Origin: Escherichia coli
GTDB lineage: Bacteria; Pseudomonadota; Gammaproteobacteria; Enterobacterales; Enterobacteriaceae
DNA: 64,000 nucleotides
Assembly: GCF_024700885.2 (NCBI RefSeq)
Contig: NZ_CP117016.1
Strand: one strand, 5' to 3'
Position 1 is the first letter of the stretch; each line of letters starts with the position of its first letter. A program made the position numbers. Positions 29,401-35,400 of the stretch are shown piece by piece.

Positions 29401-32400
29401 TGCGCGATATTGTCACCAAAGCCCATAAACACGCGGCTCGGCGAATGAATGCCCAGCTTTTCGCTGAACCAGCCACTGATGCTGTCACCCATTCCGGTTA
29501 CACTGGATTTGAGCGACTCCCATTTGTTTTTGATACCGTTAATCAGACCATCGACAAGATGGCCACCGAAGTCGGTAAACTTTGCCGGCAGATCAACACC
29601 AAGATATTTCAGCGCAGCTGCAAAGGCTTTATAGAGCAGGCCTGCCGGCGACCAGTTAATCAGTAACTTACCAATTCCCACAATGCCGCCGTTAAAGGCT
29701 TCCTGAATGTCTGCCCAGCGCTGTTTAAACCAGCCACTGACTGCCCCCCAGTTGCGGTAGATAAGGTAAGCTGCTGCCGCGACAGCGGTGATAACGAGAC
29801 CGATGGGATTCATCATCAGCGCACGTCCAATCCAGAGAACAGCACGTCCGGCGAGCATAATTCCGCGAACCAGCCCCCCGGAGAGCACGCCACTCAGTGT
29901 TCTGGCTCCTCTGGCGACGGCGCTAAATCCGGTCACCAGCCAGCGGAGCTTACCGCCTTGCCCCAGTGCGAGCGACAGACGAAGCCAGTTGGCCCGAAGT
30001 AAAACAGCATTTTTCCAGACACTTACAAAGGGGGAAATAAGGAGATTCAGCCCCAGTTTGAGACCAACAGTCGCTATCTTAATCGCAAGGAGCGCACTGA
30101 TGAGCTTAAAAGCCCCACTGACAAATTGCGGGTGAGTCGCTACCCAGTGTTTTGCCCCCTGAATGAGTGGAAGCAGTTCCTGAGTCAAAGAAATAAAAGA
30201 TGGAGCTAATTGATCGCCCAGCGTAATTGCCAGATCGCGACTGCTGACCATAAGTGTTTTAGTGGCTTCAAGGGGAGATTTCAGCCGCTGATCATAAGCA
30301 CTGGCAAGCAAATCGTTATCCGCAGCCCTGAGAGCACCGGCACGGATCTCTCGATATCTGTCCATGTTGGCCAGCATCGGGCGGATAAATGCCATGACCT
30401 GCATATCCGCGAACATATCGCCCAGACCAAAGTTTTTCGCCAGAGCCTGAAGTGCCTCATCTCTTGCCGTATCATTCTTTATTTTCATGGCTGATTTGAA
30501 GCCGGCCAGCGCTTCGGGGCTTTTGGCATTGAGGTAACGTTCTATAACACTCAACATCCCTTCAATCGGAGAGATCCCCGCAGCTTTATAACTCGCAATA
30601 GATCCCTGCAAATCAATACCCAGATCAGCAAACTGTTTCTGAGTATCGCGGGCAAAAATTTTGGTAAGAAAGTTTTTAAAATTATTGGCTGCTTCGTCGG
30701 TGGAACCTGCACCGATTTTTGCTATCTGGAGACTGGCCCCGATTTCAGCAACAGCCTCTTTTCCACTGGCAATACCCGCCATCATTGGGGCCAGGGACTG
30801 CATCCACTTGACCTGATCCGGGATTTCAAATGACCCCTGGTCACCGGCATAAGCCATAATATTCTGAACGGCACCAAAATCTCTGGCCGCACCTTTCAGG
30901 GAGTTTTGCCAGACTGCGGCCACTTTTGCCCAGTCCTGAGCAGACGTGCGTGTTGCCGTTGCCGCGCGGGCAATATCCGGCATCAGAAAACCGATATCTG
31001 ACACATTATCAATATTGTCGCTGATGAGTGAACCCACCGCCTCCTGCAGCTCATCCTGATACTGATTGTATTTAAGCGCCCAGCCTTTTATCTGTCCGGC
31101 AAGTCCATCCCGCGTTTTATTGTCATATTTTGCGGTGATCGACATATCAATCATTTTGTCCTGAAAAGACATGGACTGCTGAACGGCAGGGGAAACCGTA
31201 TGATAAACAGTCTGTGCCATGCCATACGCTTCAATCCCCTGACCATACAGCGCCATGCGGTTAGCTTTCAGCGCATCACTGGTAGCGGATGCCGCTGACA
31301 GACGGCGCTGCTGGCGCTCAATTTGCTCCATGGTGCGGCTTACCCGCAGCAGCTCGCTGTTGAGATGCTGCATCCGGGAAGAACCCAGTTGACCATAACG
31401 TTCTGTTGCACGGGTTAAAGCGTTCTGACGTTCCTGCAGGCGGCGTGAGGTATCGCTCAGGGAATCAAGCGCACGGCGGGTACCGCTCATTGCAGAACGG
31501 AATGTGCTACCAATCATCCCGCCGATAACAACGCCGACTGAAAACTGTCCCGACATAGTGGTTAACCTCCGGGGAAGGTGAAAAGACGTGAGGGGATAAC
31601 GCAGAACAGCCGCTACTGGCGGCTGTCTGTACTATGATTTGTCGCCGTACTCGCTTTTTATTTGCTCTTCAGCCTGCTCCAGCCACATCTCCAGATCGTC
31701 AGTATCGAGGGCATCAATCTCCCCCGGCTGAAACCGGAACCATCTCGCCAGCAGCCCCTGCGCCTGCGTCAGCGCCCTAGTTGCTCTCACCCATCCCCGT
31801 GATGAGCTGAAATCGTTTCTGTAACTGCAGGTAATCAGCCAGATCCATATTGTCGAGATCTTCCGGGAGAAGACCAGTACTGCGGGCAATCAGCGGTTCG
31901 TCCCAGTCTGCCGGGTTTTTGCTGATTTTGCGCACCTGCTTCAGGTCTTTTACCGTCAGGCGTTTCAGTTCAACCTGCTCAATTCTGGTGCCTGCAGCAG
32001 TGGTGAAGGGATAAGACAATTTAAAAGTATCGGATGGGGTCTGTGACATGATTGTGCTCCTGTGTAAGTTCAGGGCAGTATGTCGGGAGAAGCGCGTGAC
32101 GGATATTAAAGGAGATTAAGAAGAAGGGGCCGGAGCCCCTGTGATGTCAGCAAGTGCGAAACCCCTTGCAGTTACGCAGGAAAGCGATGAGAAGCGTCTT
32201 TCCCTCAGATTTGCCGGTGCCGGAGAACCAGTGGTCGGGAGGCTCCCATGCTTCAATCAAATCCGCCAGTTTGCGGGCCTTTGAACGTGTGCAGTCAATC
32301 GGGTCATTGGTTTTACGGGTATTAAAAAGGGTTTCCACCCCCCGGAATATCAAGGAGGGTAAACCACGTACCATTTGACATGCCCAGTGCCGCACATCGT

Positions 32401-35400
32401 CTTCCTTTATCCGTCAGTTCAACACTCATCGTCAGCCCCCGATATTGATACGGTAGTCAGTCAGTTGATCAACACCGCCGACCCGGAAGATGTTGGCCAG
32501 ATAGTCCAGTTGCAGCAGCTCTTCACCATCCAGTACCTGTCTGATATACGTGCAGGTGAAGCTACTGGAGAACTCGGCGTTCTCGTGCTGTTTGAACGTC
32601 CCCAGAGGGTTCTTCTTGAACATAATCGTCAGGAAGGTGACCAGCGGGATTTCGTCAATCAGCCCCTGCGAGCTGTAGCGCTGGACGCTGGAACGACACT
32701 GCAGTGCCAGCGACCTGTACGGGTTAGCGGCAGACAGCATCGCATCGCGGTAAAAGCTGTTCCATTTGATTTCGCCTTCCAGTTTGTCAAAACCAGCCGG
32801 GAGTTCCACCTTACCCACCATCCCCAGCGCCTTGTGTTCCTGCATAATCATGGAGACATCGGGGAGTTTAACTTCCTCAGCCCGTCCCAGCAGGTTAGTA
32901 CCATCCAGATAGATGTTGGCATTCGTGATGCGGTTTATCTCAATCTTTGACATCAGTTGCCCCCTTTCAGGGTTAACAGGTATTCCGAGGTGATCTCAGT
33001 CTCAAACGTCAGTCGCTCCAGCGGCGGTGGTGGCGTATATTTGTAGCTCAGCAACAGGTGCCCGGCGGCCAGCTCCGTCTCCGGATTGCGGGCCGGATCA
33101 AACCAGCAACGGAAGCCCAGTACCGCACCATCACCAGTCATTTTGCGACCGTAGGCGTTGACCGACTCCGTCAGTGCATCAATCAGCGCCTGAGTAATCG
33201 GCATGTCGATGTACTGCTGGCTGAAATAACGAATGGACTCGTTGATCACATCACCGGTGCGGCGAACGTTCTCAAAGTTACGCATATGGGTGACCGTTGG
33301 CCATGCTGCCGTCCGGTTACCCCACAGACGAAGGCCGCTGCCGTAACTGCTGAATACCGTGGTGATCCCCTGTTCGTTAAGCAGGTTTACCTCACTCTGC
33401 GGGTCATCAATCATCGCGGACAGCTGGCGCTCCACGCCGGTGATCCCCAGAATCTCCTGATTGGAGGATGACCACCAGTAGCCCTTGTCCAGATCGACTC
33501 TGGCACGCAGACCTGCTGCACGCTGGCTGAGCGGCTCCAGACGCTCTGTGTTTGTCACCGGGTCATATACCTTCACATGCGGATAGCACAGACGGACGCG
33601 GTCGGAGCTGGTATTGAAGTTGATGGTGCCTTCCGGGCCACGACCTGCCAGAGCCTGTGCAAAGGTGGTACCGACAGGCGCATCAATGTAGGTTACCGCG
33701 CCCAGCTTCTCTGCCATGGCGATAAGCTCAACTGCGACACTCTTCTGGGTGCAGAACACCGGCGCAATCAGAATTTTGGCGAAATAGCCGTACAGGTTGA
33801 AGCTGTCGTTAAGCAGCTTCATGCCGGTTCGGTTTCCGGCGCTGTTCACCCCGCCGATGATGTCCGCCGCAGTCACCTTCGACGGGTCCGCGTACTCATA
33901 GCTCACCTTCACGCTGCCACCGGCCTCAATAGCCTTGCCCAGGTTCGTGAGCACACCCGCCTGCGCATCAACACGGTAGTCCGTGTTCGCCGTGTGGGTG
34001 GTGCTGCCTTCACTGTTTTTCACCACCACATTAGCGACAACCGGATGCGCCAGTCTGGCCTGCCCTGTCGATTTGTCAAAGGTAACCACCTCATCCTCGA
34101 TCGCCGTTTTATGTTTCGCCGGGTCGAGGACGTTAATGACCAGAACGGTGCCTGCACCATGGTCATAAATCGCATCCAGCGCCTGCGGAATGGTAAAGCC
34201 GGTGAACTGGCTGCCAAATGCCGCTGCGTCTTTCTCAGACAGGCACTGTACCAGCGTATTGACATCCCCCATCGGGGCGGTACCAATCAGGCCAATAACG
34301 GCAGATTTCACCGTTTTAACCGGGCGGGCTCCGTTTTCCACCTCAATGGTTTCGGGACCATGCAGATAGTTAGCTGCCATGGGCGTCCTCCGTTTTCACT
34401 TCGCTGTCACTGCTGCTTCTGCGCTTTGGTGACTGCACAGCCGGTGTGACGGCGGGTTTAGTATCTTCTGGTACCGGCGTCAGATGCTTCAGCGCCACCA
34501 GTACCTTCACGTAGTCATGCTCCTCCGGCAGGGAAACCGCCTTCCCCGGCCAGAGCAGGATTTCGGTTCCGTCCGACAGCGTGACGCCGCTGGCCGGGCC
34601 GGAATAGCGGTATGCTTTCATCACTCGCTTTCCTCATAGTTCACTTCGGTTAACAGCGGGCCGGACGGTAAATCGCTGTCTTCGATAAAGATGCTTTCAG
34701 TCGCGAAGTCGAGGGCGTATTGCCACAGCCCCCTGACTTCACCGATAAACACCTCGCGGGTCAGCCAGATACGGCGGCGGCAGCCGGGCGGGGTGTGGCC
34801 ACCGAGAATGCGGCGGACAGCATCCAGGACATTAATCGCCCCTTTTTTACCGTTGAGCTGGCGGAAGACCACCGTGACGCAGAGCTGGATAGTCTGAGAC
34901 TGGATCACCGCACCGGTATCATCCGGCCTGTCAAAGCGCGAACCGGCATAGCTCAGCAGCAACGCGCCAACCGGATGGTTCAGGCGATATTCAGCCGGTT
35001 TCTCCGGGAAGTACTCCACCTGCAGTTGCGGCAGCTTCTCGCGTAACCGGGCCAGTACCGCATCAAGGACGGGCAGAACGTTCATCAGTATTTCTCCAGT
35101 AAACCGTCACGACCGCCGAAAGTGGCCGGGCGACTGCGTACACGAAACTCGCCAGGCTCAGGCACATCTTTCTGAGTGGACGGCAGCCCCAGCGTGAGCC
35201 TGTTATCACGTAACTCCCTGAGTTGCCGCAGCGCTTCTTTGTGGTCATCCTTCACCGTATCCGGGAGGTCACCTTCCGGGCGGCGGGCGTAGAGCCGGTA
35301 ACGGACCAGCGTGATGGCAATGTCCCGCAGAACAGTCGGTATCTCTGCCAGTGGCAGGATATAGCGTCCGCGCAGATGGGCATCAATCAGCTCGTCGGCA

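What the first reader, a model, noticed from the sequence alone, without database searches (positions are those of the whole stretch)
32050..32431. Unexplained 380-bp gap between tail tube and chaperone genes
In P2/Mu-type operons the tube gene is normally followed directly by the chaperone. Here about 380 bp intervene, with only weak ORFs on either strand (32147..32395 -, 32154..32378 +). This could be a small inserted gene, an internal promoter or attenuator, or a decayed ORF.
Basis: seen in the sequence. Interest (0 to 1): 0.25.

Follow-up and report, generated by a model that had tools for sequence, protein, structure and literature searches.

The report
Broken accessory gene, terminator, late promoter
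The "gap" between the tail tube and chaperone genes of this Mu-like E. coli prophage is not empty: it holds a conserved 93-codon accessory gene broken here by one extra G, then a terminator-like hairpin and a predicted phage late promoter, which is ordinary phage architecture.

Summary
About 380 bp separate the tube gene (32432-32953, minus strand) from the chaperone gene (31777-32049, minus strand), and only short ORFs are present.

The gap has three parts.
1. A 93-codon gene (PHROG 1239, Pfam DUF7739) starts 2 nt after the tube stop codon. It is intact in phages PhiKM and KP12 and in nearly all of 628 E. coli genomes. It is under purifying selection (median dN/dS 0.10). RefSeq already annotates this allele as "hypothetical protein, frameshifted".
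2. A conserved GC hairpin with a T-rich tail lies at 32125-32140. In relatives that lack the small gene, a hairpin directly follows the tube gene.
3. An element TTAA-N6-TTAA-TATC-N19-CATACT lies at 32077-32119. It recurs in three other late intergenic regions of the prophage. Its layout matches Mu C/Mor-dependent late promoters.

The small gene is an insertion: the nearest outgroups lack it, and distant family members sit in accessory regions of lambdoid phages. It is also dispensable, because the frameshifted phage is found at three different chromosomal sites. Its biochemical function is unknown; I guess a host-interaction factor. Interest is low.

The parts
32432..32953 (-). Tail tube gene (context); its stop codon TGA is at 32432-32434
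   Evidence: Pfam Phage_tube, E 2.9e-53. RefSeq product 'phage major tail tube protein' in the identical EcPF7 and MLI114 loci.
32147..32429 (-). Frameshifted 93-codon accessory gene (PHROG 1239 / Pfam DUF7739 family). ATG at 32427-32429, 2 nt after the tube stop codon. The original stop codon TGA is at 32147-32149. The gene is 283 nt here and 282 nt in intact alleles.
   Evidence: Alignment with PhiKM, KP12 and Phi06_2974B shows a single extra G. Intact 93-aa translations in relatives. The repaired protein is 100% identical to cluster P0001. phrog_1239, E 5.4e-48 over the full length. RefSeq annotates 'hypothetical protein, frameshifted' in EcPF7, TUM1857 and MLI114. Median dN/dS 0.10.
32338..32343 (-). 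Site of the lesion: a G6 run (C6 on the plus strand) where intact alleles have G5, from codons CCG-GGG-GTG (Pro-Gly-Val)
   Evidence: The run is broken by synonymous codons (GGC, GGA, GGT) in other relatives, so it is incidental and not a conserved slippery site.
32322..32429 (-). Truncated product of the broken gene: a 35-aa ORF (residues 1-30 native, then GGNPF and a stop codon)
32125..32140 (-). GC-rich hairpin AGGGGC-TCCG-GCCCCT, followed by the T-rich tail TTCTTCTT (32118-32125). It looks like an intrinsic terminator or attenuator at the end of the sheath-tube(-small ORF) transcript.
   Evidence: Top-ranked terminator-like site in the 20-kb late region. Free energy -12.8 kcal/mol, z-score -2.6. 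The stem is invariant and the loop variable across 31 distinct relatives. An equivalent hairpin directly follows the tube stop codon in Salmonella SARB27 (GGGGC-TGCG-GCCCC). In Burkholderia vB_CB2b a different stem (GGCCCGC-TTCG-GCGGGCC, followed by TTTTTT) occupies the same place.
32102..32119 (-). Imperfect dyad TTAA-N6-TTAA followed by TATC. Predicted binding site for the phage Mor/C-family late activator, centred at about -42.5.
   Evidence: Shared with three other late intergenic regions at fixed spacing. The boxes are conserved while the spacer diverges in relatives. KP12 and Burkholderia vB_CB2b show the same layout. The architecture matches published Mu late promoters (PMC2582627).
32077..32082 (-). 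Predicted -10 hexamer CATACT with no -35 partner. The inferred transcription start is near 32070.
   Evidence: GACATACTGC is conserved in all relatives. No sigma-70 -35/-10 pair was found in 31400-33100. The start position is an inference.
32047..32061 (-). Shine-Dalgarno sequence AGGAG (32057-32061) and the ATG (32047-32049) of the tail assembly chaperone gene
31777..32049 (-). Tail assembly chaperone gene (context). Here it ends at a TAG (31777-31779) where relatives have CAG.
   Evidence: Phage_TAC_7. Alignment. RefSeq note 'internal stop'.
25986..26029 (-). Sister late-promoter-like site upstream of the gpW-like baseplate gene. It shares the same 11-mer and 9-mer as the site in the gap, at the same spacing.
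37994..38037 (-). Sister late-promoter-like site upstream of the head protease/scaffold (Mu I-like) gene
45461..45504 (-). Sister late-promoter-like site upstream of the holin/lysis cassette

Best explanation
The interval is not empty DNA. It is a three-part junction in the late (tail) region of a BcepMu-like transposable prophage.

(1) Immediately after the tube gene (TGA-CG-ATG) lies a 93-codon accessory gene of the DUF7739 / PHROG 1239 family. It is normally co-transcribed with the sheath and tube genes, and probably translationally coupled to the tube gene. In this genome an extra G in an incidental G5 run shifts the frame after codon 30. Only a 35-aa stub can be made, so the gene is a pseudogene.

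(2) Seven nucleotides after the original stop codon lies a conserved GC hairpin with a T-rich tail. It predates the insertion and most likely terminates or attenuates the abundant sheath/tube transcript.

(3) Overlapping the tail of the hairpin is a TTAA-N6-TTAA dyad centred near -42.5, with a -10 hexamer (CATACT) and no -35 element. This is one of four such elements in the prophage. It is most likely a promoter activated by the phage's Mor/C-family protein, and it restarts transcription for the chaperone, tape-measure and later tail genes.

Because the downstream genes have their own promoter, the frameshift has no polar effect. The phage remains viable without the small protein.

Shown by the evidence: gene identity, frameshift, selection, insertion status, dispensability, and conservation of the hairpin and boxes. 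Inferred: actual termination, activator dependence, the transcription start, and the function of the protein. My best guess for the protein is a non-essential cytoplasmic factor that binds a host or defence protein.
For: Gene and lesion:
- The alignment shows one extra G relative to PhiKM, KP12 and Phi06_2974B, and those relatives have intact 93-aa ORFs.
- The repaired protein is identical to a cluster seen on at least 1000 contigs.
- It matches phrog_1239 at E 5e-48. DUF7739 is matched by 11 of 51 family members, best E 7e-19.
- Median dN/dS is 0.10, against 0.03 for the tube gene and 0.20 for the chaperone gene.
- RefSeq annotates the allele as 'frameshifted'.

The lesion is real, not a sequencing error:
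- An identical 401-bp allele occurs in four independent complete genomes from the USA, Mali, Japan and Korea and in an IMG/VR contig (L068).
- It is nested inside the rare lineage that carries the chaperone TAG; FCI23 and DLI.5a have the TAG but an intact small gene.

The gene is an insertion:
- It is absent from Salmonella SARB27 (tube 74% identical), Burkholderia vB_CB2b (68%) and Pseudomonas phage Bise (53%).
- In the first two, the hairpin directly follows the tube stop codon.
- Some relatives carry a second inserted gene (Phage_gp49_66) in the same slot.
- Distant family members sit after a terminase gene, next to Bro-N, near Mu F, and in lambdoid early-left and nin regions beside Abc2 and Ead/Ea22 genes.

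The gene is dispensable:
- The G6 allele is found at three different chromosomal sites: otsB-araH, ppiC and cbtA.

Hairpin.

Promoter:
- An 11-mer and a 9-mer are shared at identical spacing with the V/W intergenic region.
- The derived pattern matches only four sites in the 64-kb window, all on the late-gene strand in late intergenic regions, against 0.0-0.1 expected by chance.
- The boxes are conserved while the spacer diverges.
- The same layout appears in KP12 and, at the four homologous intergenic regions, in Burkholderia vB_CB2b.
- A Mor-family activator gene is annotated in the prophage.
- Published Mu late promoters have a -10 hexamer, no -35 element, and a dyad centred at -43.5 (PMC2582627).
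Against: - No transcript data exist, so terminator efficiency and promoter activity are untested.
- The T-tract is interrupted (TTCTTCTT), so termination may be weak.
- The hairpin stem is invariant among close relatives, so there is no covariation evidence within the clade.
- The promoter pattern was derived from the same four sites it then 'finds', so the chance statistics are post hoc. The independent support is the original exact 11-mer/9-mer match, the conserved-box/variable-spacer pattern, and the Burkholderia phage.
- At the V/W site the -10 element sits 6 nt before the annotated ATG, which requires a leaderless mRNA or a mis-called start.
- The spread to three chromosomal sites could in principle reflect recurrent G5-to-G6 slippage rather than one ancestral mutation.
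Confidence: 0.8

Rival explanations
1. The extra G is a homopolymer sequencing or assembly error, and the gene is actually intact in this strain.
For: The lesion is a 1-nt change in a homopolymer, which is the classic error type. Most genomes have G5.
Against: The identical G6 allele appears in four independent complete assemblies from four countries and in an IMG/VR contig that carries an additional substitution (L068). Every genome with G6 also carries the rare chaperone TAG, and two TAG genomes have G5. This is a nested, inherited pattern.
Confidence: 0.04
2. The G run is a programmed ribosomal or transcriptional slippage site, or a phase-variable switch, so the full-length protein is still made or is toggled on and off.
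For: G runs can slip. Both G5 and G6 alleles exist in nature.
Against: The run comes from Pro-Gly-Val codons. In other relatives synonymous codons (GGC, GGA, GGT) break it while the protein sequence is kept, so it is not conserved. Five or six G is short for phase variation. G6 is confined to one rare lineage. In the listed data, no run lengths other than G5 and G6 are seen among alleles that keep the run.
Confidence: 0.03
3. The small protein is a genuine tail-assembly or virion component specific to this enterobacterial clade, for example a helper for the tube or sheath. It would then be a core gene, not an accessory gene.
For: It sits between the tube and chaperone genes in every close relative. 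It starts 2 nt after the tube stop codon. It is under purifying selection.
Against: It is absent from outgroups whose tube proteins are 53-74% identical. Family members occur in non-tail contexts, including lambdoid early regions. The frameshifted phage has reached three chromosomal sites. About 10 of 38 distinct alleles in IMG/VR are disrupted at different positions, while the tube gene stays intact in nearly all.
Confidence: 0.12
4. The conserved TTAA-N6-TTAA ... AWRCTG element is not a promoter. It would be some other signal, such as a site for a repressor or nucleoid protein, or an RNA-level element.
For: No transcript data exist. At the V/W site the -10-like box almost abuts the start codon. 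The pattern statistics are post hoc.
Against: All four copies are on the late-gene strand, in intergenic regions just upstream of the lysis, head, tail and baseplate gene blocks. The geometry (a -10 hexamer with A at position 2 and T at position 6, no -35, a dyad centred near -42.5) matches Mu C-dependent promoters. The same arrangement recurs in a Burkholderia relative whose intergenic sequences are otherwise different. A Mor-family activator gene is present.
Confidence: 0.2
5. The real gene is the plus-strand 74-aa ORF (32154..32378), or the region encodes a small RNA.
For: The ORF exists.
Against: It matches no Pfam family. The substitution pattern fits the minus-strand frame (dN/dS 0.10). 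Rfam gave only chance-level hits, best E 0.28 and 16 bits against a 45-bit threshold.
Confidence: 0.01

Closest known systems
Pfam DUF7739 (PF24881) / PHROG 1239, small phage proteins of unknown function
   Same: The repaired 93-aa protein matches phrog_1239 over its full length (E 5e-48). Profile-linked relatives pass the DUF7739 threshold. Size is similar (about 90-100 aa), and the motifs NGTWF, TNDP, W-x-PP-x-W and C-x-GF are conserved.
   Different: This sequence alone scores 24.9 bits, below Pfam's 27-bit cut-off. No member of the family has a known function. Here the gene is in a late tail operon, whereas many members are in early accessory regions of lambdoid phages.
[quoted passage not shown]
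   Same: There are four sites per genome. Each has a recognisable -10 hexamer, no -35 element, and an imperfect dyad overlapping the -35 region and centred near -43. A Mor-family activator gene is in the same phage.
   Different: The half-site sequence (TTAA-N6-TTAA) was derived here and has not been compared base by base with the Mu C site. The positions differ: one site lies between the tube and chaperone genes, where Mu has no reported late promoter (my recollection of the Mu map). Activity is untested.
Morons of lambdoid phages (extra genes inserted between structural genes)
   Same: A small gene is present in some phages and absent from close relatives. It is inserted at a gene boundary in a structural operon and is dispensable for the phage.
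   Different: Classic morons bring their own promoter and terminator and are expressed from the prophage. No sigma-70-like promoter precedes this gene, and the hairpin after it predates the insertion. G+C content is unremarkable: 0.52 against 0.53 for the neighbouring genes.
Rho-independent terminators or attenuators after major structural genes
   Same: A GC-rich 6-bp stem with a tetraloop and a T-rich tail lies directly after the abundant sheath/tube genes. A canonical version (7-bp stem followed by TTTTTT) occupies the same position in Burkholderia phage vB_CB2b.
   Different: Here the T-tract is interrupted (TTCTTCTT). In Salmonella SARB27 the hairpin sits in a 51-bp intergenic region with no room for a new promoter, so in that phage it cannot be a full stop.
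DMP12 (Neisseria DNA-mimic protein), CdiI immunity protein and YfbM, small alpha/beta binder folds
   Different: Sequence identity is 6-13%. Foldseek E-values are not significant. The protein is basic (pI 8.8), so it is not a DNA mimic. This is a resemblance only, not family membership.

Membership tests
PHROG 1239 | Full-length profile match | tested here: met
   E 5.4e-48, residues 1-93 against profile positions 1-96 of 96
Pfam DUF7739 (PF24881) | Score at or above the gathering threshold (27 bits) | tested here: inconclusive
   The window protein (repaired) scores 24.9 bits, E 3e-5. 11 of 51 profile-linked homologues match, best E 7e-19. P0056 scores 72 bits and P0070 68 bits.
Pseudogene (frameshifted copy of a functional gene) | Reading frame disrupted relative to intact homologues that are under selection | tested here: met
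   +1 G relative to three phages and most E. coli genomes. dN/dS 0.10 among intact alleles. RefSeq annotates it as 'frameshifted'.
Intrinsic (Rho-independent) terminator | GC-rich stem-loop immediately followed by a U-tract | tested here: met
   6-bp stem with 5 GC pairs, tetraloop, 5-6 T in the next 8 nt, though the tract is interrupted
Intrinsic (Rho-independent) terminator | Transcripts end at the U-tract | not testable with these tools
   No transcriptome data available
Mor/C-dependent late promoter (Mu type) | Recognisable -10 hexamer without a -35 hexamer | tested here: met
   CATACT at 32077-32082. At 17-bp spacing only 2 of 6 positions match TTGACA (from the sequence). No sigma-70 pair was found.
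Mor/C-dependent late promoter (Mu type) | Imperfect dyad for an activator dimer, centred about -43 and overlapping the -35 region | tested here: met
   TTAA-N6-TTAA at 32106-32119, centre -42.5 if the -10 hexamer spans -12 to -7. Mu reference value is -43.5.
Mor/C-dependent late promoter (Mu type) | Several copies in front of late operons, with a Mor/C-family gene in the phage | tested here: met
   Four copies, all in late intergenic regions. A Mor transcription activator family protein is annotated at the end of the early operon.
Mor/C-dependent late promoter (Mu type) | Transcription depends on the activator | not testable with these tools
   Needs a reporter assay or in vitro transcription
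Moron | Gene present in some phages and absent at the same junction in relatives | tested here: met
   Absent in SARB27, vB_CB2b and Bise
Moron | Own promoter and terminator, autonomous expression in the lysogen | tested here: not met
   No promoter-like site upstream. The hairpin is ancestral to the junction. Expression itself was not tested.
DNA-mimic proteins (DMP12-like) | Strongly acidic, DNA-like surface charge | tested here: not met
   Calculated pI 8.8

The most novel reading that the evidence does not exclude
The hairpin-plus-late-promoter junction after the tube gene acts as an insulated 'cargo slot'. Any small gene dropped between the tube stop codon and the hairpin is expressed at the high level of the sheath and tube genes. 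It also has no polar effect on the rest of the tail operon. DUF7739 proteins, and Phage_gp49_66 in some relatives, would be host-takeover or counter-defence inhibitors that exploit this slot. The naturally frameshifted but still mobile lineage would then be a ready-made knockout for finding their target.
Probability: 0.3. Interest if true: 0.5.

Novelty: new member of a known kind. Interest (0 to 1): 0.2.

Why it matters
The finding removes an apparent anomaly. The tail operon is normal, and the "gap" is an annotated pseudogene plus regulatory DNA.

There are two modest gains.
- A concrete, testable map of four predicted Mor/C-type late promoters and an internal terminator, for a Mu-like prophage carried by about 12% of complete E. 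coli genomes (628 of 5426).
- Evidence that the DUF7739 family is a mobile, selected but dispensable accessory gene of temperate enterobacterial phages. Natural loss-of-function lineages exist that could be used to find its function.

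Tried and rejected
- Rfam scan of 31400-33100 gave only chance-level hits to archaeal snoRNA and RsmY models, far below threshold.
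- PADLOC and NCBIfam gave no match.
- A profile search of PDB sequences gave nothing (E 1.5 to a ubiquitin E2).
- Foldseek against PDB found no significant hit. Against BFVD the only hit below E 0.001 (5.6e-4) was an unnamed viral protein, and the named matches are uncharacterised proteins. The afdb50 library was unavailable.
- Literature searches for DUF7739, PF24881, phrog_1239 and the WP accessions found nothing relevant.
- Large 'hits' in the representative search (P0098, P0101, P0102) are unrelated multidomain proteins and were discarded.
- I first assumed the window came from EcPF7. The host/phage junction shows it matches MLI114 instead.
- I could not pin down the chaperone frameshift site to a single heptamer.

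Full report
**Observation.** All genes in this part of the window are on the minus strand. The order is sheath (32953-34380), tube (32432-32953), chaperone (31777-32049), the overlapping GpE-like frame (31632-31889) and tape measure (28866-31556). The interval 32050-32431 contains only short ORFs. The spacing is also unusual. In the outgroups Pseudomonas phage Bise, the Salmonella SARB27 prophage and Burkholderia phage vB_CB2b, the tube-to-chaperone distance is 5, 51 and 121 bp, with no ORF in between.

**What the ORFs are.** A nucleotide search found Escherichia phage PhiKM (99.2% identical), Klebsiella phage KP12 and phage Phi06_2974B. PhiKM and KP12 are annotated with a 282-nt 'hypothetical protein' gene exactly in this interval. 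Alignment shows that the window differs by one extra G in a G run: CCGGGGGGTGG here against CCGGGGGTGG in the relatives. The run is at 32338-32343. Removing that G gives a 93-aa protein that is 100% identical to a cluster seen on at least 1000 contigs. So the 35-aa ORF is the 5' part of a single gene, and the 82-aa ORF is its out-of-frame 3' part. In the identical loci of E. coli EcPF7, TUM1857 and MLI114, RefSeq annotates 'hypothetical protein, frameshifted'.

**Is the gene real?** The protein matches PHROG 1239 over its full length (E 5e-48). It scores just below threshold for Pfam DUF7739 (24.9 against 27 bits). An exhaustive profile search found 75 representative clusters, mostly stand-alone proteins of 90-100 aa. 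Of 51 aligned members, 11 match DUF7739, best E 7e-19. Among diverged intact alleles the median dN/dS is 0.10 at dS of about 1.1. The tube gene gives 0.03 and the chaperone gene 0.20. The gene is therefore a genuine, selected coding sequence. The plus-strand 74-aa ORF has no family match and is an antisense shadow. Rfam found nothing above chance.

**Is the frameshift real?** Of 628 E. coli genomes carrying this locus, four have the exact 401-bp allele: EcPF7 (USA), MLI114 (Mali), TUM1857 (Japan) and JMK_KBN3987 (Korea). All other listed records span 400 bp. An IMG/VR contig (L068) has the same G6 plus one further substitution.

All G6 genomes also carry a rare CAG-to-TAG change in the chaperone gene. 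FCI23 and DLI.5a have the TAG but an intact small gene. This nested pattern points to an inherited mutation rather than a sequencing error.

The G5 run is simply the codons CCG-GGG-GTG. In other relatives synonymous codons break the run while Pro-Gly-Val is kept. It is therefore not a conserved slippery or phase-variable site.

**Insertion and dispensability.** The nearest outgroups lack the gene. In four relatives (L045-L047, L058) a second small gene (Pfam Phage_gp49_66) sits between the tube gene and this gene. Distant family members occupy unrelated positions:
- after a large terminase gene, next to a Bro-N gene, and near a Mu F-like gene;
- in lambdoid phages, in the early-left operon beside Abc2 and Ead/Ea22 genes, or just after replication gene P. 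Sometimes they occur in tandem arrays with DUF4752.

This is the behaviour of a mobile accessory gene, not of a tail component.

The window's host/phage junction (cbtA next to the prophage) is unique to MLI114. The same G6 allele lies between otsB and araH in EcPF7 and TUM1857, and next to ppiC in JMK_KBN3987. A transposable phage carrying the frameshift has therefore reached at least three chromosomal sites, so the gene is not needed to make infectious particles. The less parsimonious alternative is recurrent G5-to-G6 slippage.

In IMG/VR about 10 of 38 distinct junction sequences have the gene disrupted at different positions (L044, L056, L058, L066, L068, L071, L072, L074 and L075, plus the window itself). 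The tube gene stays full-length in almost all. Some of these disruptions could be draft-assembly errors.

**The remaining 97 bp.** Seven nucleotides after the original stop codon lies the hairpin AGGGGC-TCCG-GCCCCT (32125-32140), followed by TTCTTCTT. It is the strongest terminator-like site in the 20-kb late region. Its free energy is -12.8 kcal/mol with a z-score of -2.6. Across 31 distinct relatives the stem is invariant and the loop varies.

In SARB27 nearly the same hairpin (GGGGC-TGCG-GCCCC) directly follows the tube stop codon. In vB_CB2b a different, canonical terminator (GGCCCGC-TTCG-GCGGGCC followed by TTTTTT) sits at the same place. The hairpin is therefore ancestral, and the small gene was inserted between the tube stop codon and the hairpin.

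**Predicted late promoter.** The stretch after the hairpin shares an exact 11-mer (CCTTTAATATC) and an exact 9-mer (ATACTGCCC), at identical spacing, with the intergenic region upstream of the gpW-like baseplate gene. Degenerate versions occur upstream of the holin gene and of the head protease/scaffold gene.

The pattern TTAA-N6-TTAA-WATC-N20-AWRCTG hits exactly these four places in 64 kb, all on the late-gene strand, against 0.0-0.1 expected by chance. The pattern was derived from these same sites, so the statistic is post hoc. The independent support is as follows:
- In relatives the boxes are conserved while the 20-nt spacer diverges.
- KP12 keeps three of the sites.
- Burkholderia vB_CB2b shows the same layout at the four homologous intergenic regions, although their sequences are otherwise different.

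The geometry is a -10 hexamer (CATACT, 32077-32082) with A at position 2 and T at position 6, no -35 element, and a dyad centred near -42.5. This matches published Mu late promoters, where C binds a dyad centred at -43.5 (PMC2582627). The prophage also encodes a Mor-family activator.

I therefore read this element as a late promoter for the chaperone, tape-measure and later tail genes, with an inferred transcription start near 32070. The G-I gap shows the same arrangement of a terminator-like site followed by a promoter-like site. Termination and activation themselves remain inferences.

The protein lies in non-essential accessory regions in other phages, resembles small binder proteins, evolves faster than the tube protein, and is dispensable. 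My working guess is a cytoplasmic protein that binds a host or defence factor during lytic growth. I put this at about 0.3; the function is otherwise unknown.

**Comparison with known systems and verdict.** Each component is of a known kind: a frameshifted hypothetical gene already flagged in RefSeq, an intrinsic-terminator-like hairpin, and a Mu-type activator-dependent promoter. What is modestly new is the explicit four-promoter map for this widespread E. coli prophage, and the picture of the tube-hairpin junction as a slot for accessory genes. The finding is explained and ordinary, and its interest is low.

Noticed in passing
window 31777-31779 (minus strand), within chaperone gene 31777-32049: The chaperone gene ends at a TAG where relatives have CAG, giving 90 aa instead of 104-111. 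RefSeq calls it a pseudogene with an 'internal stop'. The C-to-T change is synonymous (ACC to ACT) in the overlapping GpE-like frame. The zero-frame tail it removes varies in length among relatives. Phages carrying it sit at three or more chromosomal sites. The gene may therefore still be functional.
   Followed up: partly
window about 31630-31800 (minus strand): Codon-position variability switches from frame 0 to the +1 frame at about nt 255-290 of the chaperone gene. The extended chaperone product therefore needs a +1 (or -2) shift, not the -1 shift described for P2 E/E+E' (from memory). I did not pin down the slip site. Conserved G runs are candidates.
   Followed up: partly
window 25978-26029 (minus strand): At the promoter-like site upstream of the gpW-like baseplate gene, the last T of the -10 box lies exactly 7 nt before the A of the annotated ATG (25980). 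The same geometry occurs in Burkholderia phage vB_CB2b (L080, about 17070-17120). This suggests a leaderless mRNA. In vB_CB2b the head protease start also looks mis-called: homology begins at the third ATG, at 5085.
   Followed up: partly
window about 31590-31625 (minus strand): A second hairpin (ACAGCCGC-CAGT-GCGGCTGT, then TCTGCGTT) lies between the end of the GpE-like frame and the tape-measure gene. Its stem sequences are conserved in KP12 although the flanks diverge.
   Followed up: no
window about 20056 (left prophage end); whole prophage about 20056-57000: The window matches E. coli MLI114, with the prophage next to cbtA. The same phage allele lies between otsB and araH in EcPF7, TUM1857 and FCI23, and next to ppiC in JMK_KBN3987. 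This fits an active Mu-like transposable phage. 628 of 5426 complete E. coli genomes carry the locus.
   Followed up: partly
loci L045-L047 and L058 (IMG/VR), between the tube gene and the small gene: An extra ORF of about 97-99 aa from the Phage_gp49_66 family (Pfam E 7e-13, phrog_322) is inserted in the same junction. The tube-hairpin boundary has therefore received accessory genes more than once.
   Followed up: partly
loci L044, L056, L058, L066, L071, L072, L074, L075: The small gene is independently disrupted (frameshifts, internal or N-terminal deletions) in about a quarter of distinct alleles, whereas the larger tube gene next to it is almost always intact. This could be relaxed selection, selection for loss in lysogens, or draft-assembly errors.
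   Followed up: no
window 37964-38179 (minus strand): A 215-bp ORF-free gap lies between the virion-morphogenesis (Mu G-like) gene and the head protease/scaffold gene. It holds terminator-like hairpins (38179-38196, 38100-38113) followed by a promoter-like site (37994-38037). This is the same arrangement as in the tube-chaperone gap.
   Followed up: partly
window about 20100-22300; loci L018, L076-L078: A recombinase/invertase gene sits next to tail-fibre and fibre-assembly genes. The order and orientation of those genes differ between strains (EcPF7 against TUM1857, FCI23 and JMK_KBN3987). This fits a Mu G-segment-like invertible host-range switch.
   Followed up: no
loci L083 and L084 (NCBI GCA_974498155.1): A lambdoid prophage region carries three to four tandem repeats of a three-gene unit (DUF4752, an unknown 237-aa protein, DUF7739), flanked by Ead/Ea22 genes. 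This is an unusual amplification of the family. An assembly artefact has not been ruled out.
   Followed up: no
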